From Saccharolobus solfataricus (GTDB lineage: Archaea > Thermoproteota > Thermoprotei_A > Sulfolobales > Sulfolobaceae), in assembly GCF_900079115.1 (NCBI RefSeq), contig NZ_LT549890.1, positions 1,470,001 to 1,502,000 on the forward strand: a DNA stretch of 32,000 nucleotides, written 5' to 3'. The translations under genes and the position numbers were made by a program. The notes beneath the pieces are model-generated. The model did no database searches and had not been told where the DNA came from. It was given only the letters and a program-made list of their open reading frames with translations. Below, piece by piece: positions 18,213 through 28,073 of this stretch. Position 1 is the first letter of the stretch. Every line of letters starts with the position of its first letter.

Positions 18213-19283
18213 TTAAGAAAAGGCTAAACTAATTAGAGGCTCTGAAGGGCAATATTTTTCACCCTCCTTAATTATCCATGAGTGTTTTGTTAATTGTGTT
18301 AAATAGTTATAAATTTCTGAGTCAGATATTTCTATTCCCTCTTCCAATTCCAAAGCCCTCTTGACATCACTCCATTTACCGCATTTTGATAAGGTCCTCA
18401 TTATATTTAAATACCTCTTTCTAGCGATTTCTCTGCCATGTAGAAAATTCTCAAATTCCTTTAAGATAAGCTTTTTAGCGTACTCCAATGTTTGATTTAT
18501 TGCAAAATCTAAATTCTTATTATCTAAATAGATAAAACCAAAGTAGGTTAGCCAACCTGGTATTCCTCCAATTTTCTCATAAACGACTTCGTAATCCTTA
18601 AAATCAATATCTGCCTCTTGAAAACCTCTCCTCAAAAACTCTATAGCTTCTTCTCTAGAAAAGGGCTTTAATTCAACCGTTGAAAAGGCTCTCCCGAAAA
18701 GCGGACTTTCTGGATCTTCAACTCTTAAGTAATCGTAAAGCAAACCCATCTCTGAACCACTCATAATAAATTTAATTCGCTTTAAATTATCATACGCATA
18801 AGCTAGTGCTGGTAAAAGATTAACTCCTCTTAACTTAACCAGCTCCTGAGCCTCATCAAGGACAATAATCACATTATCCTTTGATGCCTGCTCAAAGCTC
18901 TCCAATAAATTCGCAAAACTTAACCTATCCTTCCTATTCCAATTGAACTTAATTTCATTTCCCATTATCACAATCCCTTGAATGTTTTTTAGCGCCTTCA
19001 GTAATGAAGGAAGTCTTTTTACCAACTTGTTAATCTCCTTTTGAAGTTCAAGTAGGAAATCCTTATAGGAAATGTAATTTCTCTCTTCGAATTTTCTTAG
19101 ATCCAGATAGATGTAAGGGAGATTTAACTCATTTATTCCTATCTTTATTATGGATGATTTCCCTGTTCTTCTCAATCCTAAAACTAAGGTTATTGGCGCC
19201 CTCAATCCTTTCAACTTCTCAATTTCTTTTTCTCTATCAAAGAAATCTTTTCTGTTATCCTTAGGTGAAGTATCGAATAGCAC
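18213..19283 (-). CDS. Archaeal ATPase (Arch_ATPase/PF01637-like P-loop protein)
   Basis: 356 aa. N-terminal MLFD...FFDREKEIEKL, Walker A GLRRTGKSS, Walker B IIVLDEAQ. GTG start. Confidence 0.8.
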   Translation of the reverse strand: MLFDTSPKDNRKDFFDREKEIEKLKGLRAPITLVLGLRRTGKSSIIKIGINELNLPYIYLDLRKFEERNYISYKDFLLELQKEINKLVKRLPSLLKALKNIQGIVIMGNEIKFNWNRKDRLSFANLLESFEQASKDNVIIVLDEAQELVKLRGVNLLPALAYAYDNLKRIKFIMSGSEMGLLYDYLRVEDPESPLFGRAFSTVELKPFSREEAIEFLRRGFQEADIDFKDYEVVYEKIGGIPGWLTYFGFIYLDNKNLDFAINQTLEYAKKLILKEFENFLHGREIARKRYLNIMRTLSKCGKWSDVKRALELEEGIEISDSEIYNYLTQLTKHSWIIKEGEKYCPSEPLISLAFS

Positions 19284-19761: not shown

Positions 19762-20581
19762 ATGCAAGTTTATGAAACGGGATTCAAAACGGAGTTGAAG
19801 TCCCTCGCTAGTTATTTCATCGTCAATAATCTTAACGTTATCTCCCAAGAGTTGGACACGAGGATCGCGGACGCAGCTCCGTTCCTGTTGACAGGGAACA
19901 GGGAAAAGGAGTACTTGAAGGTCGTTAGGGAAGGAGAGAAGGTGATGAGTCAAGGGGAGAGGAGCTTCAAGTTCTACCCTCACGTGAAAGTTGAGGGAAA
20001 GACTACAATCGTTGCAGTGGACGAGACCGCGATAACCGTGGGAGAGAAGGAGTCGAGGAAGGTGGAAGGATTTCAACTCTACAACGGGAAGAGGAAGGGA
20101 GTTAAGTTGAGGTCCGTGGACTTGGTGTTCCCCTTGAGGTTGTCCCTCCTCGAGGAGATAGCTGACTTGAGAAGCGATACTCCCTCCCAGTTCCTGATGA
20201 GGGCCGTGAGCGAAGTTGCTCAGCACCTCAAGATAGACTACGTTGTTGCTGACGCGGGTTTCCTGAACTTGAAGGTAATCAAGGAGATGCCTGTGAAGAC
20301 CGTGGTAGGAGGTAAGACCAACCTGAAGGGCTTCAAGGAACTCTCCAACGTCTCTCTAACCGAGAAGAAATGCGAGGTAAATGACAGGGTTTACGTTGCG
20401 TATAGGGTCCTGAAGTACAATGACCTTTACTACTATGAAGTGATATACGTCAAGGAGAAACCCAGGCACTTCATCTTCGTTACCAACTTCAATGGAGATC
20501 CCTACAAGCTAGCTGAGCTCTACAGGTTGAGATGGCAGAGCGAAGAGGGCTTCAAGGTCAGGAAGGCCAGGATAAGATACG
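19762..20581 (+). pseudogene. DDE transposase (IS4/ISH3-like), C-terminally truncated at a MITE insertion
   Basis: VAVDETAI (D), YVVADAGF (D), YRLRWQSEEGFK (Y-R-E-K region). The reading frame runs into the MITE and picks up the tail SAFRKFMAYRQRIYH. GC content is visibly well above the surroundings. Confidence 0.75.
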
Positions 20582-20663
20582 TTAGTGCTTTCAGAAAGTT
20601 TATGGCTTATAGGCAAAGGATATACCACTAGATCATAGTCTAAGAACTTTTCCAAAATACTAA
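20582..20663 (+). mobile_element. ~80-bp MITE, copy B
   Basis: ttagtgctttcagaaagtttatggcttataggcaaaggatataccactagatcatagtctaagaacttttccaaaatactaa, identical or nearly so to copy C. Confidence 0.8.
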
Positions 20664-20685: not shown

Positions 20686-21646
20686 GTAGGGGTAATTGGA
20701 ATAGACGTATCAAAAGAACACTTGGTAACAAGTAAGGGGAGGGTGAGGAAATTCACAAACAACGAGAAGGGCTACGAAGAAATACTAACCATGAAGCCAA
20801 ACATCATCGTAATAGAACCCACAGGAGTATACTCAACAAGACCTTGCCAATACTTCAAAGAAAGAGGAGTGAAAGTCCTACTAGTCAGCCTTGTTATGGA
20901 AAGAAAAGGACGTAAGGGGAAAGAAAACAGATTTTTACGACGCAGAAAAACTTGAAAACATGGTAAATAAGGCTAGAGAATACGTTAACAACCCCTTAAA
21001 AGAATTAGTATCACTCTACCTCTTCATGAAGGATGTGCAAACGAAACAAGAGAACAGGTTAAGGAGAGCTCTCTTCCTCGTGAGCGACGAGGAGAAGTTG
21101 AGCGAGGAGAGATTGGAGAAGTTCTCTAAGGGAGACTTCTCTGACGTAAAACTGTATCAACTGGAATACACTGGTACAGTACTACGTGAGATTCAAGTCC
21201 TAGCGAGAACACTACTTCAAACGCGAGAAGAGTTGAAGGAGGTGAGGAAAATGATAGAGGGTAATGTGCCTCAAGACCACGTGTTACTCACGATTCCCGG
21301 AATAGGGAAACTGGCAGCTGGGATTATAATTGGGATTGTGGGTGATATTAAGCGCTTCCCAAGACCTGAATCCTTCGTTGCTTATTGCGGTTTAGACCCG
21401 GTAGTTGAGAGGAGTGGTAGGATTGAGGTTAGAAAGGGTATCTCTAAGAGGGGTAACAAGTATTTGCGTAGCTTGTTTTATTTCCTCGCCGAGACTCAAT
21501 ATTCGCGTAACCCAACTCTCCTTAAGTTCTACGAAGCTCACAAGGATAAACTGAAGGGTAGGAAACTGTACACTGCCTTAGCTAGGAAGTTGGCTAGGAT
21601 AGTGTGGAGTGTTTGGTATAATAATAAGCCTTATGAGGTGAAGTGA
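20686..21646 (+). pseudogene. IS110-family (DEDD) recombinase/transposase, copy 1; no start codon before the conserved N-terminus and at least one frameshift
   Basis: VGVIGIDVSKEH, VIEPTGVY, GKKTDFYDAEKL (shifted frame from ~20900), C-terminal TIPGIGKLAAGIIIGIVGDIKRF...GISKRGNKYLRS. Confidence 0.85.
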
Positions 21647-21888: not shown

Positions 21889-22009
21889 CAAATGATATTA
21901 GAACGTTTTCTAAGTGTAGTCAGCGATATTTAGCTTAGCGGGTACACTATGGACATACTCAAAGTAAAAAGCTAACATGAAGTAAATTGTCTGAGAGGCT
22001 ACGCAGTTT

Positions 22010-23194
22010 TTATTGCTTAAACACATTCTTAAACACCCACAAGGCGAGGACAATATAACCAAGTAAGAGTTCTGAGACGACTATCACAACGTCCTTTTGT
22101 CCTACCAATAAATCCAGAAAAGACAACAAAATATTCCCCAAAGCACCGAAAATACTGCCTAAGGTCGCGAGTAGGCCGTTATAAGACGCAATAATTTCTT
22201 TAGGTAACTTCATCTGGAAAATAGGACTTGCAAATGAGCTGTAAAGGGTCAAGGAAAGCCAATAAAACACTATAAGGATTAAAGAAAACTGAGGCTGGAC
22301 AAAAGCCAGAGAAACCAAAAGTATCGCGGGGATAAGACCCCTGAAAAATATAAAGATATAATATAGATTATTTCTGTATTTTTCTACCTTAATTTTAGTA
22401 AAAATTAGAAGTGAAATACTACTGTACGCGATTGTCATCGAGTAGTAGATCATGTAGTTGAGGACGAAATAGGACTGTGGAAAAAACACTAGAAAGGTCG
22501 GAAATAGACCGCCTATAAAGTTTGCGAAAAGTGTATCTATGAGGAAGAACGTTATCGCCCGATCCTTTTTAAACGCTGAAATTGAAAGGGAGAAGAGGAG
22601 TTTAGCATTACCAGTGCCTTTAGGGTATTTAATCTTGAAAATTAAAGGAGTATGTATTAACAACATGAATAAGCCGAGGACTAAAAGCAGTGATCTTAAG
22701 CCGATTATGAAAAAGGTTAGGTACAAGAATACGATCGCCGAAGCCGTTCTTACAATGTTTACAGTAATCCACACCACTCTGTACTCTGATGCAGAATTTA
22801 CCAAATTCCTTAATACCTTTACGTGGTTTGTCCCCTTAAAAGAGTGTATGGTGACAATCACAGTATAAGCTAGGAAAATAAAACCTAGTTCAAAACGGTA
22901 AAGGAAATAAAATAGTAAAAAAGAAGTCCCGCTTAACAGTGAAAGTATTAGATCGTACCTCCTAGTGTTTACTATATAATCTGTTAGGAAACCTGATATA
23001 CCGCTCAAATGCCCCAGAACGTAAGAAATGCTGAGTAAAGCTCCTACCAGTAACGGGTTTTTAGTCTGTAAGAAAAGGTAAGCCGGAAATACTGCCGAGA
23101 TGATTATTACAGGCTGTAGAAAGTGCTGTAAAAGGTAAAACTTGACGTTAGTATTAGATAGTATTTTACTCGGCTTCGACTCCAACAACTTCAC
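22010..23194 (-). CDS. Polytopic membrane protein, weakly MFS-like; candidate exporter of the operon product
   Basis: 394 aa, about 10-12 hydrophobic segments. GFLTDYIVNTRRYDLIL is loosely reminiscent of MFS motif A. The start overlaps the radical-SAM gene end by 29 nt. Oligo-T tract after the stop. Confidence 0.7.
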   Translation of the reverse strand: MKLLESKPSKILSNTNVKFYLLQHFLQPVIIISAVFPAYLFLQTKNPLLVGALLSISYVLGHLSGISGFLTDYIVNTRRYDLILSLLSGTSFLLFYFLYRFELGFIFLAYTVIVTIHSFKGTNHVKVLRNLVNSASEYRVVWITVNIVRTASAIVFLYLTFFIIGLRSLLLVLGLFMLLIHTPLIFKIKYPKGTGNAKLLFSLSISAFKKDRAITFFLIDTLFANFIGGLFPTFLVFFPQSYFVLNYMIYYSMTIAYSSISLLIFTKIKVEKYRNNLYYIFIFFRGLIPAILLVSLAFVQPQFSLILIVFYWLSLTLYSSFASPIFQMKLPKEIIASYNGLLATLGSIFGALGNILLSFLDLLVGQKDVVIVVSELLLGYIVLALWVFKNVFKQ

Positions 23195-24185
23195 CTAACT
23201 CATGTAATCTAGGACACCCCCTACTCAACGGTGAAAGGATATATTTAGCCCATCTGTTGATTTTACTTTCATCAAGTACTATGCTTCCATCTTCTTCTAT
23301 GTGGCCTACTGACTCATCATCTATCATTACAGTTAGAGGACATTTAAATAATTTACCATCATTTCTTATAATTATAGAAAACGGATACAGCGCTTGACAT
23401 AAATCATCCATCGCTGGAACACCATCAATTTGAAGTAACGTGTCTTTATCTGGAATATTCAAGCCTAGTTGCGTAGCATACATATATAATTCTTGAATTA
23501 TTTCCATTCTTTTTTTAGGTTCTATGACTTTTAGGTTTTTATCGTTGTCCCCACCAGATCTAGTCACGGGGAAAAAAGTAAAGTAATATCTTCTATCTCT
23601 GCTAAAGTAATTCGACGCTAAGTCTAAGAATTTCTTAATTGAGTCTAAATTATCTGGCATTACGTTTGATCTTATAAACATAAAGAAATTATCAGTTACA
23701 TTTCTTGTTTGAATAAGATTTTCGAATATTTTATCAAACGTAGGCTTACCATTTAATAATGGTCTAAGCTTATCATGAGCATCTTTATAACCATCTATTG
23801 TCACCTGAAATATCTTTACACCTTTTTCTAATAAGATCTTGAATTTTACTATATCTAAGAGGTAACCATTAGTTATAATCTCACCAATTATATCCGTTTT
23901 ATACGTTTTTCCTATCGAATTAGTGAAATCCATAATATCTATAATAGTTTTAAAATCTAGTAACGGCTCTCCTCCATACCATCTGATGTGAACTTTTCTG
24001 AAAAAGCCAGTTTTAATATTATTTTCTAAAAATAATTTTATTCTTTTTGTCATTTCTGATGTAGTTATCATATTTTTAATTTTATAATGGTCATTCTCGT
24101 AGCAGTACACACATCTAAAATTACACCAACTAGATGGAATGATAGTTATCGAAAAAATTTTCTTATCTTGTATTTTTCCTATCAT
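23166..24185 (-). CDS. Radical SAM enzyme with partial SPASM/twitch auxiliary-cluster signature (anSME/peptide-maturase-like)
   Basis: CNFRCVYC (CX3CX2C). GGEPLL SAM-binding motif. C-terminal CQALYPFSIIIRNDGKLFKC equals CX13GX4C. The track start is GTG 24194, but ATG 24185 is preferred because GGTGA (complement of 24191-24195) sits 5 nt upstream. Confidence 0.85.
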   Translation of the reverse strand: MIGKIQDKKIFSITIIPSSWCNFRCVYCYENDHYKIKNMITTSEMTKRIKLFLENNIKTGFFRKVHIRWYGGEPLLDFKTIIDIMDFTNSIGKTYKTDIIGEIITNGYLLDIVKFKILLEKGVKIFQVTIDGYKDAHDKLRPLLNGKPTFDKIFENLIQTRNVTDNFFMFIRSNVMPDNLDSIKKFLDLASNYFSRDRRYYFTFFPVTRSGGDNDKNLKVIEPKKRMEIIQELYMYATQLGLNIPDKDTLLQIDGVPAMDDLCQALYPFSIIIRNDGKLFKCPLTVMIDDESVGHIEEDGSIVLDESKINRWAKYILSPLSRGCPRLHELGEVVGVEAE

Positions 24186-24247
24186 CCCACTCACCTAACT
24201 TACATATATGTATTATTAGGTTTCGGAATTTCGAAATCTTGTATGTG

Positions 24248-24397
24248 TCAGCATGCACTATATAAATCTGAACCTCCTCCTGGCCCAGCTTCACACACTA
24301 TTTCATTCGCTGCTCTTATTTCTGGATGGCGATATATTTCTTCATATATTGGCTCTATTTGTAGTACATTCTCCATAGATTTTATTCTTTTAGCCAT
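24248..24397 (-). CDS. Unlisted 49-aa ORF, candidate RiPP precursor peptide: MAKRIKSMENVLQIEPIYEEIYRHPEIRAANEIVCEAGPGGGSDLYSAC
   Basis: Hand translation of the minus strand. ATG at 24397, TGA at 24250-24248, in-frame stop 3 codons upstream of the ATG. 62 nt upstream of the radical-SAM ATG on the same strand. Below the size cutoff of the ORF track. Confidence 0.5.
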   Translation of the reverse strand: MAKRIKSMENVLQIEPIYEEIYRHPEIRAANEIVCEAGPGGGSDLYSAC

Positions 24398-24419
24398 CGT
24401 TATTTAACTTAGAATTCGT

Positions 24420-24450
24420 CCTTTTTATTTTTTACTATTATAATACCTTA
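24420..24450 (-). promoter_or_regulatory. Possible BRE/TATA region for the small ORF-radical SAM operon
   Basis: The gene strand reads ...ATTATAATAGTAAAAAATAAAAAGgacgaattctaagttaaataacgATG. The A/T box ends ~23 nt before the ATG, compatible with a leaderless or short-leader transcript. Confidence 0.3.
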
Positions 24451-24683
24451 TATGTTTTTAGAAATAATAATGATATAAATTTTAAGTATCTTATATAAAG
24501 CTGGTTTATGATCTGATAAAAATAAAAAAAAGTTTTTATCGTTTCCTATCTACTGTAATCAGGGCTATTCACGGATCCATCGCGATTTCAATTTGTTTCT
24601 CTAAATATAGTACTGCTTCTTAAGTAATACATAAATATTAAAGTATTTAGTAAGATTTTTACTTTAAATTTTAGCTAGTTGTC

Positions 24684-24803: not shown

Positions 24804-25340
24804 CTAGAGTAAAATTCCTCTTTCGTTAGACCTACCCTCTCTAATGTCCTTTAACGAGGCAATTCCCATGGGATTTTTAACTTCCTCAAACACCTTATCG
24901 AAATCTATCTCTATGGATTGGCCTAACTTTTGAAGAATAATGTCCAATTTTTTATTAATCTCTTTCAGTAGTGATGTAATTTCTGAACTATCACTTTTCC
25001 CCTTCTCTTCTTCAGACTGCTGCGCACTATTGGTGCTATTTCTTTCCTGAATACCTTTATCTAATAGTTGGATACTACTACCATTTGACCTTCTTATAAC
25101 ACTTATTATCCCTTCTTTTTCTAGCTCATTTAGTAGTTCCTCAGAAGCCCATTTAACTTTAGATCTCGCTATTTTTCCTCCATGATCCCTTAAATACTTA
25201 ATTAGTTTCTCCTTACTATTCACAATATAATAAATATAAATGGAGATTTTTAACTTAATGGGGTTTGCCTTTAGGAGACTAAGATGGCGAAAGTCCATTC
25301 TTGGAACTGCTATCTTCATTACCTTCATTTCAATTAACAC
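24804..25340 (-). CDS. Hypothetical protein with probable winged-helix DNA-binding domain and coiled-coil tail
   Basis: 178-aa ORF. LIKYLRDHGGKIARSKVKWASEELLNELEKEGIISVIRR is wHTH-like. The true start may be an internal Met (MKIAVPRM / MDFRHL). Flanked by IS remnants on both sides. Confidence 0.45.
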   Translation of the reverse strand: MLIEMKVMKIAVPRMDFRHLSLLKANPIKLKISIYIYYIVNSKEKLIKYLRDHGGKIARSKVKWASEELLNELEKEGIISVIRRSNGSSIQLLDKGIQERNSTNSAQQSEEEKGKSDSSEITSLLKEINKKLDIILQKLGQSIEIDFDKVFEEVKNPMGIASLKDIREGRSNERGILL

Positions 25341-25547: not shown

Positions 25548-26510
25548 ATGGACGTGCTTAGAACACTAAAAAGGAGGATCAGAAAGCTGATCGAAAAGAA
25601 GCCCAAGAACCTAAACGAAACCAAAGCAAGAGGAATATTACTATACTTGAAATGAAAACTAAAAAATAGCCGAGATACTACAAGTACACTTGAGCACAGT
25701 TTACAGATGGATCAACCAATTCGAGAAAGAAGGAGAGAAATGCCTATTCTACAAAGAGAGAAAAGGAAGAAACAAGAAGATAGACGAAAAGGAGATAAAA
25801 GTAGAAGAACTTCAAGGTAAAACCATATGGGAAGCAAAGGCTTATATAGAGGAGAAGTTTCACGTTAAATTAAGCTACGTAACAGCTTGGAGAATAGCTA
25901 GGAAAAGATTGAAAATCCCCTACATATAACAAGAAGAGGCCCTTTAACGCAGATAACATCTTGAGGGATAGACTAAAGGGTGTTATTAAGAAGGGTGTTA
26001 AGGTGTTTTTCACGGATGAGTCCGGTATTCATCACGATCCTTCCAGGAGATTGGGGTTGTATAATGTTCCCGTTGATTATCCCAGTAGGAAGCTTAATGT
26101 TCTCGCTTCTATTCCCTTGTTTGGCGGTGTTCCTTGTTTCATGTTCACCTATTCCAATGTTAATTCCGAGATCTTTGCTGAGTTTCTTCGCTTGTTTAGG
26201 AATTCCGGTCCTATTGTGTTGATCCTTGATAATGCTAAGTTTCACAAGAATGCTTATGTTTTCTCCGTTGCTTCTCAGCTCGGCATTATCTTGCTTTTCT
26301 TGCCTCCGTATTCTCCGGATTTAAACCCTATTGAGTTTGGAAGGACTTGAAGCGTTGGGTTAATACTTATTATAATCTTGAATACACTCTTGATTCGATG
26401 GAGGAGGAGTTCTATTATTTGTTTTTGACGCGTGATTATACAAGCTATTGGGTTAATAAGTTTCGCGACGTGCTCGAGAAACTGGAGGAAGAGGTTAGTA
26501 TGAAACAATT
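25548..26510 (+). pseudogene. IS630/Tc1-mariner-family transposase, interrupted by several frameshifts and stops
   Basis: HTH part ...STVYRWINQFEKEGE. DDE part FFTDESGI, LILDNAKFHKN, LPPYSPDLNPIEF followed in another frame by WKDLKRWVN. Pieces correspond to track ORFs 25690-25929, 25961-26350 and the start of 26347-26820. Confidence 0.85.
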
Positions 26511-26929: not shown

Positions 26930-28073
26930 ATGGAAAGTGAGATTAAGACAAGGGGTTTCGCAATAGACGTTTCAAGGGACAAGTTGACGGTAGCGAAAGC
27001 TGAACTTGTAATAACGCAAGAGAAAAGGGAAGTAGAGGTCAACGAGGTGAGGGAATTCAAGTACGACAACGAGGGAATAGAAGAACTAATCAAATTCCTT
27101 GGCGAATATAAGGAAGGGATAATGGAGTCAACCGGACCGTACTTCTTCTACCTACACGAAGAACTAACAGAAAAGGGATATAAGGTAACATTAATAAATC
27201 CCTTACACTTGAAGGAAGTATTCGGAAAGAAGACCGACAAGCTAGACGCGCAAAGACTGGCAAAAGCCTTCATCCTGGGAGCAGTTAAGGGGTCATACAT
27301 ACCGACCGGGGAAATAAGGGAATTGAGGGAGTTAACGAGGTATAGGGAGAGTTTGATGAGGAAGATAACACAAGTAAAGAACGAGATAAGGAAGTTTCTA
27401 GAAATGGCGGGATACAAGATAGAGCCCTTTGATAAGAGGGGAATAGCGTTGCTGGAGAAGTTAAGTAGGGGAGAAGGGCTGAGCAAGGAGGAAAGGGACG
27501 AGTTGAAGGAGAAGTTAGGGAGAAGTTTGAATGATGCTGAGAAGCTAGCTTTGAAGCAGCTGGTAGACTTACTGAAGAGCTTGGAGGCTATGGTTAAGGA
27601 AGTTGAGGACATGATAATTTCTAAGATTCCTCAGCCTGTGGTCGAGTTGAGCCGGGAGTTGGTTTGATCAGTGCTGCAACCATTTACGCTGAGTTCGGTG
27701 ATGTTTCTCGTTTTTCCAGTTCTAAGGCTGCAAGGGCTTATGCTGGTTTTGCTCCCAGGACTAAGCAGAGTGGTGAGAGCGAGTCTCACTCTGGTATGGG
27801 TAATAAGTATTTGCGTAGGGCTTTTTTCTTGGTTGCTAGGGTTGCTAGGAAGTCTGAACGTTTTAAGGAGTATTACGATAGGCTTGTCTCCAAGTGGAAG
27901 AGTGCTACTAAACTTGTGCTCTTGGTGGGAAGCTTGCTTGTATTTGTTATCACGTTATAAAGGATGGTGTTTACAAGGGCGATGTTAAGAAGAGTTTTAG
28001 GGCACCTAGGGGGAAGGACGTTAACGTTCAAGATGTTGATGTGGGTGATGTGCTGGACTCGTTGTCCCAGTAG
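26930..28073 (+). pseudogene. IS110-family (DEDD) recombinase/transposase, copy 2; two frameshifts
   Basis: FAIDVSRDK, MESTGPYF, GKKTDKLDAQRLAKA. After a frameshift near 27655: PGVGLISAATIYAEFGDVSRF...GMGNKYLRRAF. After a second shift near 27900-27960: KDGVYKGD...SQ*. The stop at 28071-28073 abuts the outer right TIR. Confidence 0.85.

What the first reader, a model, noticed from the sequence alone, without database searches (positions are those of the whole stretch)
24248..24397. Sequence logic of the 49-aa ORF: charged/aromatic leader, Gly-rich hinge, two-Cys C-terminal core ending in Cys
The hand-translated peptide is MAKRIKSMENVLQIEPIYEEIYRHPEIRAANEIVCEAGPGGGSDLYSAC. The N-terminal ~33 residues are charged and helical-looking with repeated IYEE/IYRH, which resembles a leader. 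A GPGGG hinge could act as a double-glycine-type cleavage or flexibility site. It separates Cys35 from a short tail SDLYSAC that ends in a C-terminal Cys49. The residues most often touched by rSAM maturases (Cys thioethers, Tyr/aromatic crosslinks, C-terminal processing) are concentrated in the last 15 residues. CEAGP also matches the first three positions of the anSME substrate motif (C/S-x-P/A-x-R) but lacks the Arg.
Basis: seen in the sequence. Interest (0 to 1): 0.75.

Follow-up and report, generated by a model that had tools for sequence, protein, structure and literature searches.

The report
Candidate radical-SAM peptide precursor in Saccharolobus
The 49-codon reading frame is real and is most likely the substrate peptide of the stripped-down radical-SAM enzyme encoded right after it in Saccharolobus solfataricus, an uncharacterised archaeal modified-peptide cassette that is decaying in related species.

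Summary
The ORF exists exactly as translated, but on the minus strand (24397 to 24248). Its length alone is not beyond chance. Three things support translation: GC by codon position of 52/42/18 %, three close alleles whose indels are all in frame, and a diverged 73-aa positional homologue.

The leader (residues 1-29) and the anchors EIVCEAGP and LYSAC are conserved. Positions 30-31 and the loop after Gly-Pro are hypervariable.

It opens a three-gene cassette: peptide, then a 339-aa radical-SAM enzyme behind a GGTGAG Shine-Dalgarno, then an overlapping 394-aa membrane protein (SSO1550). The enzyme lacks the N-terminal peptide-recognition domain. It keeps only three C-terminal Cys, the Aux I ligands of a SPASM domain. 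Its nearest structures are CteB, anSME and SkfB.

All five other short-form relatives whose loci I opened also have a small Cys-tailed ORF immediately upstream.

- GPGGG is not a conserved double-glycine site.
- The C-terminal Cys is a S. solfataricus-specific TGG-to-TGA truncation. Other alleles carry a 9-16-residue tail.
- The anSME motif is not supported.

Where the peptide is absent (Stygiolobus- and Acidianus-type loci) the enzyme is a pseudogene or a remnant, while the membrane protein persists. Thioether chemistry is inferred, not shown.

The parts
24398..24561 (-). Conserved A/T-rich upstream block of the cassette. It probably holds the promoter; an AAAAAATAAAAA box lies at -36 to -25 from the ATG.
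   Evidence: Homology between the window and the metagenome alleles L012/L013 starts here and is near-perfect. Further upstream their contexts differ: SSO1553 in the window, PIN and HEPN/NTase genes in L013. Promoter function is inferred, not tested.
24311..24397 (-). Leader part of the precursor ORF (codons 1-29, MAKRIKSMENVLQIEPIYEEIYRHPEIRA).
   Evidence: Only K3I, M8I and one synonymous change occur among the three close alleles. M8I in L012 rules out Met8 as the start. The diverged allele in L030 shares M..KIK and I.AAN by eye; BLASTP of the two peptides gives E = 0.008.
24251..24310 (-). Core part (codons 30-49, ANEIVCEAGPGGGSDLYSAC). The anchors EIVCEAGP and LYSAC are conserved; positions 30-31 and the loop 40-44 are hypervariable.
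   Evidence: Codon table. All changes in alignment columns 30-46 are non-synonymous or in-frame indels (-2 and +2 codons). Synonymous changes occur at G38 and A48. Cys35 and Cys49 are invariant in the close alleles, and the SAC Cys is also present in L030.
24248..24250 (-). TGA stop specific to S. solfataricus; TGG (Trp) in alleles L012 and L013-L015.
24200..24247 (-). Former follower tail (HIQDFEIPKPNNTYM*), now the peptide-enzyme spacer. It has no run of five or more T.
   Evidence: It is translated in frame in the 63- and 67-aa alleles P0083 and P0084. Its only two substitutions are synonymous in that frame. The homology breakpoint with the peptide-less Stygiolobus-type loci is at 24232.
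24190..24195 (-). GGTGAG Shine-Dalgarno-like box, 4 nt before the enzyme's ATG (24185).
   Evidence: Read directly from the sequence. NCBI calls the 339-aa form that starts at this ATG. I know this box as typical of operon-internal genes in Sulfolobales; it was not tested here.
23166..24185 (-). Short radical-SAM enzyme (339 aa; AAK41767 / Q97Y04). It has CNFRCVYC plus an Aux I-only Twitch-like C-terminus (C263, C282, C324 in the 339-aa numbering) and no RRE.
   Evidence: Pfam Radical_SAM and Fer4_12 only, no SPASM hit. The best NCBIfam models are RiPP maturases, all far below cut-off and aligned from profile position ~80. Alignments A4 and A6. AF2 model pLDDT 88.8. Foldseek top hits are CteB, anSME, ChlB and SkfB.
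22010..23194 (-). 394-aa polytopic membrane protein SSO1550 (about 11-12 helices, MFS-like). It overlaps the enzyme gene by 29 nt and is a candidate exporter and/or immunity protein.
   Evidence: No Pfam hit at E <= 0.01; MFS_1 only at E 0.065-2.9. UniRef labels it 'MFS transporter'. Homologues were found only in Sulfolobaceae. It is retained under pN/pS 0.16-0.22 where the enzyme is dead. The structure model is unusable (pLDDT 42).
21966..21970 (-). T5 run about 40 nt after the membrane-protein stop; a possible archaeal terminator of the operon.
   Evidence: Read from the sequence. The function is inferred.

Best explanation
The ORF is a genuine, translated precursor peptide and the first gene of a three-gene cassette in Saccharolobus solfataricus: precursor, short radical-SAM enzyme, membrane protein.

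Proposed mechanism:
1. The N-terminal ~29 residues act as a leader. They dock directly on the enzyme, which has no RRE domain.
2. The enzyme's radical-SAM cluster generates 5'-deoxyadenosyl radical, which abstracts a hydrogen from a residue in or next to the variable loop between Cys35 and Cys49.
3. A Cys thiol, possibly held on the open iron of a three-Cys auxiliary cluster as in CteB, captures the radical and forms a thioether macrocycle.
4. The membrane protein exports the product and/or protects the producer.

Shown: the ORF, the gene order, the allele pattern, the enzyme's architecture and the co-decay pattern. Inferred: translation in vivo, enzyme-peptide pairing, leader binding, thioether chemistry and export or immunity.
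For: Position and operon signals:
- The ORF ends 62 nt before the enzyme's ATG on the same strand, with a GGTGAG box and no T-run between them.
- The membrane gene overlaps the enzyme gene by 29 nt.

Coding signature:
- GC1/2/3 is 52/42/18 %.
- Three close alleles differ by -2 and +2 codon indels.
- Outside the variable columns there are 5 synonymous against 2 non-synonymous changes.

Diverged homologue:
- A 72/73-aa ORF occupies the same position in L030, next to an orthologous enzyme (56-62 % identity) and membrane protein (48 %).
- It shares M..KIK, I.AAN, Y..SAC and IP.P with the window peptide.

Co-occurrence:
- Peptide plus intact enzyme: S. solfataricus and L012, with enzyme pN/pS 0.27.
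- Peptide absent: the enzyme is frameshifted and its CVYC motif is mutated to CVYF (L001, L017, L018), frameshifted in the part that survives on the contig (L019, L020), or reduced to a 28-84-aa remnant (L003, L022, L028).

Enzyme family:
- The best models are Cys-peptide thioether maturases: TIGR04463, CefB, geopeptide, Clo7bot, PapB and SCIFF.
- The best structures are CteB, then anSME, ChlB and SkfB.

Family habit:
- The short form is widespread. About half of the top 150 representatives are 300-365 aa and match end to end.
- All five other short-form loci I opened have a small upstream ORF with a Cys-bearing C-terminus: L010, L011, L031, L032 and L034.
Against: - There is no transcript, ribosome-profiling or peptide evidence, and no paper mentions SSO1550-SSO1553 or the accessions.
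- ORF length is not significant by itself (P = 0.18).
- Only four alleles are known and three are close, so the substitution counts are small.
- An HMM of the bacterial short-family precursors does not score the Sulfolobales peptides above shuffles (300 of 2000). The pairing therefore rests on position rather than on peptide homology.
- The window peptide has two Cys. Three of the bacterial precursors (L010, L011, L031) have three, L032 has four and L034 has two.
- The S. solfataricus allele is truncated relative to the others, and the cassette decays repeatedly in relatives, so it may be non-functional here.
- L030 keeps its peptide although its enzyme has two frameshifts.
- No leader peptidase is in the cassette.
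- S. solfataricus is an aerobe, which is unusual but not exclusive for radical-SAM peptide chemistry.
Confidence: 0.62

Rival explanations
1. It was a precursor gene, but the S. solfataricus copy is a relic. The TGG-to-TGA change removed the follower tail, and the cassette is on the same path to loss seen in Stygiolobus- and Acidianus-type loci, so no mature product is made today.
For: - Two close alleles and the diverged allele all extend beyond the SAC Cys.
- The enzyme has been lost independently at least three times: by frameshifts plus CVYC to CVYF, by deletion to a remnant, and by frameshifts in L030.
- One S. solfataricus sample has the membrane gene frameshifted (L008). In another, the first 7 codons of the peptide are replaced (L016).
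Against: - The enzyme is intact and identical on 49 contigs, apparently all S. solfataricus, the only organism the cluster names for the full-length form.
- Enzyme pN/pS against L012 is 0.27.
- Both Cys and the whole leader are intact.
- One bacterial family member (L032) also ends in Cys, so a terminal Cys is compatible with the family.
Confidence: 0.18
2. It is a real small protein, but not the enzyme's substrate. For example it could be a small regulator or a partner subunit, and the radical-SAM enzyme acts on something else.
For: - The peptide has no significant similarity to the precursors of related enzymes.
- It has only two Cys.
- No family model hits it.
Against: - A hypervariable loop between invariant Cys-containing anchors, together with a conserved N-terminus, is the pattern of a modified-peptide precursor rather than of a folded partner.
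- Every short-form relative inspected has such an ORF.
- Peptide and enzyme are lost together in the Stygiolobus-type loci.
Confidence: 0.1
3. It is not translated. The stretch is only the promoter and 5' leader of the enzyme's mRNA, and the ORF is a chance frame.
For: - An ORF of this length arises in 18 % of random sequences of this size and composition.
- The upstream non-coding block is about as conserved as the leader codons.
- There are no expression data.
Against: - Two indels are both multiples of three.
- The frame stays open in four alleles, including one with almost no nucleotide similarity.
- Codon-position GC periodicity is present.
- Synonymous changes are in excess outside the variable loop.
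Confidence: 0.08
4. It is an anSME-type system. The enzyme would oxidise the Cys of CEAGP to formylglycine as in sulfatase maturation, or act on a sulfatase elsewhere.
For: - anSME is the second-best structural neighbour.
- C-E-A matches the first three motif positions.
Against: - The motif's Arg is absent.
- The sulfatase maturase model scores 61 bits against a 349-bit cut-off, below six peptide-maturase models.
- All four Aux II ligands of anSME-type SPASM domains are missing.
- There is no sulfatase among the 29 window ORFs scanned.
- The Cys contexts in L030 do not fit the motif.
Confidence: 0.02

Closest known systems
CteB/CteA (thermocellin, SCIFF-type ranthipeptide) and PapB/PapA (freyrasin) thioether maturases
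   Same: A radical-SAM enzyme is encoded next to a small Cys-bearing precursor. CteB is the best PDB match by sequence (5WGG, E 4e-14) and by fold (5WHY, E 2e-15, TM 0.71). In CteB, Aux I has three Cys ligands and an open site that takes a substrate Cys (PMC6231123). The window enzyme likewise keeps only three Aux I-type Cys.
   Different: CteB has an N-terminal RRE and a full SPASM domain with Aux II. The window enzyme has neither. Scores are far below the curated cut-offs: SCIFF maturase 74 of 425 bits, PapB 94.5 of 340 bits. SCIFF precursors have six Cys and PapA has CX3D repeats; here there are two Cys around a variable loop. Those systems are bacterial and anaerobic, whereas this one is in an aerobic thermoacidophilic crenarchaeon.
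SkfB/SkfA (sporulation killing factor) and other radical-SAM Twitch peptide enzymes (TqqB)
   Same: It is a peptide maturase with a truncated SPASM (Twitch) domain that carries a single auxiliary cluster with apparently three ligands (PMC6231123, PMC10114670). SkfB is among the fold matches (6EFN, E 2e-10).
   Different: SkfB has an RRE and five C-terminal Cys, and its operon has dedicated processing and ABC export genes. There is no significant sequence relationship beyond the radical-SAM core.
Unnamed clade of short (300-365 aa) radical-SAM enzymes in metagenomes (P0001, P0004, P0126-P0142 and others)
   Same: End-to-end alignment at 30-39 % identity. They share the CNFRCxYC motif, the CYAAxPNSxxIRxDGxxxKC motif and a terminal CP, and they have no RRE. 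A small Cys-tailed ORF lies directly upstream in every locus opened.
   Different: Their precursors share a leader motif (F/V-x-x-D-x-x-G-R/K-x-x-I) and, except for L011, a P-G-G/A motif. Three of them carry three Cys close together, L032 four and L034 two. The Sulfolobales peptides do not score against that profile. Partner genes also differ: a C39 ABC transporter or an S8 peptidase there, and an MFS-like protein here. No NCBIfam model names the two short-form enzymes scanned (P0001, P0004) or the precursors of L010 and L011.
Anaerobic sulfatase-maturating enzyme (anSME)
   Same: The fold class is the same (4K36-4K39, E ~1e-13), and it is a Cys-targeting radical-SAM enzyme.
   Different: anSME has a full SPASM domain with two fully ligated auxiliary clusters and acts on the C/S-x-P/A-x-R motif of a sulfatase protein. 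Neither the Arg nor a sulfatase is present here.

Membership tests
RiPP precursor peptide (generic) | A small ORF adjacent to, and co-oriented with, its modifying enzyme | tested here: met
   The ORF ends 62 nt upstream of the radical-SAM ATG on the same strand, with a GGTGAG box before the enzyme. The same arrangement is seen in L012 and L030.
RiPP precursor peptide (generic) | A conserved leader with a variable core carrying invariant modification sites | tested here: met
   Codons 1-29 are nearly invariant. Positions 30-31 and 40-46 are hypervariable with in-frame indels. Cys35, Gly38-Pro39 and LYSAC are invariant in the close alleles. Only four alleles were available.
RiPP precursor peptide (generic) | The peptide is made and post-translationally modified | not testable with these tools
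   No expression or mass-spectrometry data were found.
Radical SAM/SPASM peptide maturases (TIGR04463, CefB, PapB, SCIFF maturase, etc.) | A score at or above the curated NCBIfam cut-off | tested here: not met
   The best score is 144.6 bits against a 525-bit cut-off (TIGR04463). PapB scores 94.5 of 340 and the SCIFF maturase 74.3 of 425.
Radical SAM/SPASM peptide maturases | A CX3CX2C radical-SAM cluster motif | tested here: met
   CNFRCVYC at residues 24-31 of the 342-aa form. It is invariant or nearly invariant in alignments A4 and A6.
Radical SAM/SPASM peptide maturases | The seven-Cys SPASM motif (CX9-15GX4C ... CX2CX5CX3C ... C) for two auxiliary clusters | tested here: not met
   Only CX13GX4C and one later Cys (GCP) remain. 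The segment carrying the first three Cys of CX2CX5CX3C, and the last Cys, are absent. There is no Pfam SPASM hit at E <= 0.01.
Radical SAM/SPASM peptide maturases | An N-terminal RiPP recognition element (RRE) | tested here: not met
   All long-form profiles align from position ~75-90 onward. The protein starts about 20 residues before the cluster motif.
Twitch-domain radical-SAM enzymes | A truncated SPASM domain binding one auxiliary Fe-S cluster | tested here: inconclusive
   The sequence pattern fits: three conserved Cys at Aux I positions, and a beta-hairpin plus helix in a confident model.
Double-glycine (C39/PCAT-processed) leader peptides | A conserved GG/GA/GS at -2/-1 and a C39 peptidase-ABC transporter partner | tested here: not met
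   GGG is replaced by IAG or IGKG in the close alleles. There is no Peptidase_C39 among the window ORFs scanned.
anSME substrates | The C/S-x-P/A-x-R motif in a sulfatase | tested here: not met
   CEAGP lacks the Arg, and the host is a 49-aa peptide rather than a sulfatase. No sulfatase domain was found in the window ORFs scanned.
Major facilitator superfamily (the membrane protein SSO1550) | A Pfam MFS_1 match at the gathering score and a 12-helix MFS fold | tested here: inconclusive
   MFS_1 matches only at E 0.065-2.9 in 3 of 6 homologues. About 11-12 helices are predicted but the model has pLDDT 42. A motif-A-like GFLTDYIVNTRR follows helix 2, read from the sequence.

The most novel reading that the evidence does not exclude
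The cassette encodes a cross-linked peptide toxin of Sulfolobaceae (an 'archaeocin' made by a minimal, RRE-less, single-auxiliary-cluster radical-SAM enzyme). SSO1550 would be its exporter and immunity protein. Hot-spring populations would then be polymorphic: producers (S. solfataricus, L012) alongside lineages that lost the peptide and enzyme but keep the membrane protein as orphan immunity (Stygiolobus- and Acidianus-type loci). The hypervariable loop would be evolving under an arms race. If true, this would be the first radical-SAM-modified peptide natural product from a crenarchaeon, and an enzyme that recognises its leader without an RRE.
Probability: 0.15. Interest if true: 0.78.

Novelty: new variant of a known kind. 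Interest (0 to 1): 0.55.

Why it matters

This cassette is small (three genes, about 2.6 kb) and lies in a cultivable model species. The enzyme lacks both the RRE and the second auxiliary cluster, which most mining approaches appear to rely on, so such loci may go unnoticed. It could show how a minimal radical-SAM core recognises a leader peptide, and whether one three-Cys auxiliary cluster is enough for thioether formation.

The natural series of alleles gives ready-made comparisons for testing function: a variable loop, presence or absence of the follower tail, dead enzymes, and a retained membrane protein.

Tried and rejected
- **Plus-strand reading of the coordinates:** it gives only stops. 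The 106-aa plus-strand ORF 24087-24407 is an antisense artefact over the peptide and the enzyme's start.
- **Family searches for the peptide:** Pfam, NCBIfam, PADLOC and PHROGs gave nothing.
- **Degenerate DNA pattern for YEEIYRHPEIR in JGI metagenomes:** 0 hits.
- **Mobile-element carriage:** there was no relative of the enzyme in the viral contigs and no match of the cassette in the plasmid or phage collections.
- **Defence-system reading:** only weak viperin hits limited to the radical-SAM core (40 bits).
- **Shared leader or PGG motif with the bacterial short-family precursors:** MAFFT aligns them plausibly. However, a profile built from the bacterial precursors scores the window peptide no better than 15 % of shuffles. 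I keep it only as a lead.
- **Structure of the membrane protein:** the model is unusable (pLDDT 42), so no fold search was run on it.
- **GC-richer segment that replaces the peptide gene in Stygiolobus-type loci:** no Rfam hit and no unusual RNA folding (z = -1.5).
- **Literature:** searches for the locus tags and accessions found nothing.
Full report
**1. Observation**

The coordinates hold a 49-codon ORF, but on the minus strand. The plus strand is full of stops.

Length alone does not make it a gene. An ATG ORF of at least 49 aa turns up in 18 % of Markov-1 random versions of the 609-nt intergenic region. The ORF is richer in G+C than the spacer upstream of it (37 % against 25 %). It also shows the codon-position gradient of coding DNA in an A+T-rich genome, with GC1/2/3 of 52/42/18 %.

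The window comes from Saccharolobus solfataricus. The identical peptide is called as a hypothetical protein (WP_009992855.1, HFC64_01615) on CP033235, CP050869 and many read-run assemblies.

**2. Surroundings**

On the same strand, after a 62-nt spacer with no T-run and a GGTGAG box four bases before the ATG, lies a 339-aa radical-SAM protein (23166-24185; AAK41767/Q97Y04). A 394-aa polytopic membrane protein follows and overlaps it by 29 nt (22010-23194; SSO1550). A T5 run lies about 40 nt after that gene.

The upstream gene SSO1553 (24804-25340) has no family hit and is not part of the unit. In two metagenome alleles, homology with the window begins only 164 nt upstream of the peptide ATG, and different genes (PIN, HEPN/NTase) lie beyond it.

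IS-element transposase genes and fragments lie on both sides of the cassette. None of the 29 window ORFs I scanned is a C39 peptidase, ABC exporter or sulfatase.

**3. The enzyme**

Pfam sees only Radical_SAM and Fer4_12, with no SPASM hit. The best NCBIfam models are all peptide maturases for Cys-containing peptides: TIGR04463, CefB, FlmE/OhkG, geopeptide, Clo7bot, PapB and the SCIFF maturase. Every score is far below its curated cut-off, and every long model aligns only from position ~75-90.

Alignment with long and short relatives shows two deletions relative to the canonical architecture:
- The ~90-residue N-terminal RRE is absent.
- Of the SPASM motif, only CX13GX4C and one later Cys (GCP) survive.

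From my knowledge of the anSME structure, these three Cys are Aux I ligands and all four Aux II ligands are gone.

An AlphaFold model built on 55 homologues is confident (pLDDT 88.8). Its nearest solved structures are CteB (E 2e-15), anSME, ChlB, SkfB and SuiB. CteB is also the best sequence match in the PDB.

In CteB, Aux I has three Cys ligands and its open iron binds a substrate Cys. SkfB is a Twitch-type sactisynthase with an apparently open site. SuiB binds its leader without using its RRE (all from PMC6231123). These are precedents, not tests, for how a protein like this could work.

**4. A widespread unnamed short-form clade**

An exhaustive HMMER search found 17,670 relatives at E <= 0.001. 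About half of the top 150 representatives are 300-365 aa and match end to end at 30-39 % identity. The twelve I read share the following:
- CNFRCxYC
- CYAAxPNSxxIRxDGxxxKC
- a terminal CP

In every short-form locus I opened, a small ORF with a Cys-bearing C-terminus sits immediately upstream:

| Locus | Precursor ORF(s) | Partner gene |
|---|---|---|
| L010 | three to five tandem 71-78-aa ORFs; the three read end ...NVNCSTCATNVYCPPKATK or a close variant | none seen |
| L011 | ...LKTCGGHCGDSNCG | none seen |
| L031 | 35 aa, ...LLCNIGCSNGSCKTII | none seen |
| L032 | 56 aa, ...EINGAAGIFQIPGGTCGNRCGTGCC | C39 ABC transporter |
| L034 | 107 aa, ...FGPGGLGDTNVVGCPKANIYKCSGIAVEEA | S8 peptidase |

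No NCBIfam model names the two short-form enzymes (P0001, P0004) or the two precursors (L010, L011) I scanned.

The Sulfolobales peptide looks similar by eye, with a P-G-G motif and a comparable leader pattern. A profile of the bacterial precursors does not score it above shuffled controls (300 of 2000). I therefore treat this family habit as support by analogy only.

**5. Alleles of the peptide**

Besides the S. solfataricus form I found three others:
- a 63-aa allele (P0083, locus L012)
- a 67-aa allele (P0084, loci L013-L015)
- a diverged 72/73-aa ORF in the same position in L030

The L030 ORF reads MMTTKIKYIDEITNLSIYYKNVDNVISAANCPRYYPCYLTGEGDPSFQCADPGGPNCGYPTSACLSIPDPKKR. It lies next to an enzyme that is 56-62 % identical and a membrane protein that is 48 % identical to those of the window.

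The codon table of the three close alleles shows:
- Outside alignment columns 30-46 there are five synonymous changes and two non-synonymous changes (K3I, M8I).
- Inside those columns every change is non-synonymous (A30 to L or M, N31I, G40I and others).
- The loop after Gly-Pro differs in length by -2 and +2 codons (GPGGGSD, GPIAG, GPIGKGNPD).
- EIVCEAGP and LYSAC are invariant.
- M8I excludes Met8 as the start.

The numbers are small.

**6. What does not hold**

- **The GPGGG 'hinge'.** It is not a conserved double-glycine site; only G38-P39 is conserved. In the bacterial relative that has a C39 exporter, PGG lies within the core, downstream of a canonical ...L-x-x-I-x-G-A site. If there is a leader/core junction here, the AAN/ALI/AMI position, where variability begins, is the better candidate. 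That is my inference.
- **The terminal Cys.** It is specific to S. solfataricus. The two close alleles have TGG where the window has TGA and continue WHIQDFEIPKPNNTYM, and the L030 peptide continues LSIPDPKKR. The only two substitutions in that tail are synonymous in frame, so a follower tail is probably ancestral.
- **The anSME motif.** It lacks its Arg, there is no sulfatase, and the sulfatase maturase model scores 61 of 349 bits.

**7. Co-occurrence and decay**

| Loci | Peptide | Enzyme | Membrane protein |
|---|---|---|---|
| S. solfataricus | present | intact; identical 339-aa protein on 49 contigs | intact (frameshifted in sample L008) |
| L012 | present | intact over the 230 codons available; pN/pS 0.27 against the window | contig ends before it |
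| L001, L017-L020 (L001 is Stygiolobus sp. CP850M) | replaced from window position 24232 upstream by unrelated DNA where the contig reaches that far (L001, L017, L018) | frameshifted; cluster motif reads CVYF where that region is present (L001, L017, L018) | full length in L001, L017, L020 (95-97 % identical; pN/pS 0.16-0.22); frameshifted in L018 and L019 |
| L003, L022, L028 (L003 is an Acidianus hospitalis MAG) | absent | only a 28-84-aa C-terminal remnant | full length in L003 and L022; frameshifted in L028 |
| L029 | absent | absent | present, beside ABC-transporter genes |
| L030 | intact | two frameshifts | intact |

Peptide and enzyme are thus linked in presence and in loss, with L030 as a partial exception. 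The membrane protein has a value of its own. Its fold could not be established (pLDDT 42; MFS_1 only at E 0.065-2.9). Homologues were found only in Sulfolobaceae.

**8. Most likely mechanism and status of each step**

- **Shown:** the ORF and its allele pattern, the operon-like arrangement, the enzyme's radical-SAM motif, the missing RRE and Aux II, the fold neighbours, and the family habit of adjacent Cys peptides.
- **Inferred, step 1:** the leader (residues 1-29) docks directly on the enzyme.
- **Inferred, step 2:** 5'-deoxyadenosyl radical abstracts a hydrogen from a residue in or beside the loop.
- **Inferred, step 3:** a Cys thiol, perhaps bound to the open iron of the three-Cys auxiliary cluster, closes a thioether ring.
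- **Inferred, step 4:** SSO1550 exports the product and/or confers immunity.

I put the probability that the ORF is, or recently was, the enzyme's substrate at about 0.8 (0.62 functional plus 0.18 relic). Thioether chemistry, given that, I put at roughly one half. Tyr46 is conserved in the Sulfolobales alleles, but not in the bacterial precursors of L011, L031 and L032, which argues for Cys rather than Tyr as the common target.

**9. Comparison with what is known, and novelty**

It works most like the ranthipeptide/sactipeptide systems (CteB, PapB, SkfB). It fails their membership tests: curated scores, RRE and the seven-Cys SPASM motif. It belongs to an unnamed short-form clade.

Neither the locus tags SSO1550-SSO1553 nor the protein accessions I searched appear in the searchable literature. 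[quoted passage not shown]

I rate it a new variant of a known kind: the familiar radical-SAM peptide logic, in a crenarchaeal aerobe, with a minimal enzyme and a two-Cys variable-loop core.

Interest is moderate. The candidate is clean and testable, but its chemistry and expression are unproven, and the S. solfataricus copy may be a truncated allele of a cassette that is being lost across the family.

Noticed in passing
L001:5701-5925 (also L017:1159-1383; partial in L018:1-90): In the Stygiolobus-type loci, the peptide gene and its promoter block are replaced by a segment of unrelated sequence with higher G+C (43 %). It carries a same-strand ORF with three Cys (MRVYKFCSYVLSCKREPYSELDEQCEGEDG...). 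It has no Rfam hit and no unusual RNA folding (z = -1.5). Its origin is unknown, and I cannot say whether it is an alternative precursor.
   Followed up: partly
window 19762-20631, 20891-21646, 25961-26350, 26930-27667: IS-element transposase genes and fragments lie on both sides of the cassette: DDE_Tnp_1, the C-terminal domain of an IS110-family transposase, a DDE_3 fragment, and an IS110 N-terminal DEDD domain. The two IS110 halves lie about 5 kb apart, on either side of the cassette and in the wrong order for a single gene, which suggests rearrangements around this locus.
   Followed up: no
L016:1-160 (Logan SRR10582084): In one S. solfataricus read-run assembly, the first 7 codons of the peptide are replaced by other sequence and the contig ends 31 nt upstream. 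This is the 42-aa annotation WP_283849778.1. It may be an IS insertion into the peptide gene in that strain.
   Followed up: no
L008:1442-2621: One S. solfataricus sample has a frameshift in the membrane-protein gene SSO1550 (two pieces of 187 and 218 aa), while its peptide and enzyme are intact.
   Followed up: no
L010, L011, L032, L034 (bacterial metagenome loci): The precursors of the bacterial short-form enzymes share a leader motif (F/V-x-x-D-x-x-G-R/K-x-x-I, followed by a short helix-like stretch). Except in L011, a P-G-G/A also precedes the Cys cluster. This looks like an undescribed precursor family paired with an undescribed RRE-less radical-SAM clade.
   Followed up: partly
window 18213-19283 (-): An archaeal ATPase_2/AAA protein with a C-terminal MCM-type winged helix matches the PADLOC candidate defence families PDC-S27 and PDC-S01 (E 7e-12 and 8e-08). 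Together with the PIN and HEPN/NTase genes next to the cassette in L013, this suggests a variable, defence-rich neighbourhood.
   Followed up: no
window 24087-24407 (+): A 106-aa plus-strand ORF lies antisense to the peptide gene and to the start of the enzyme gene. I treated it as a mechanical by-product of the coding strand opposite and did not examine it further.
   Followed up: no
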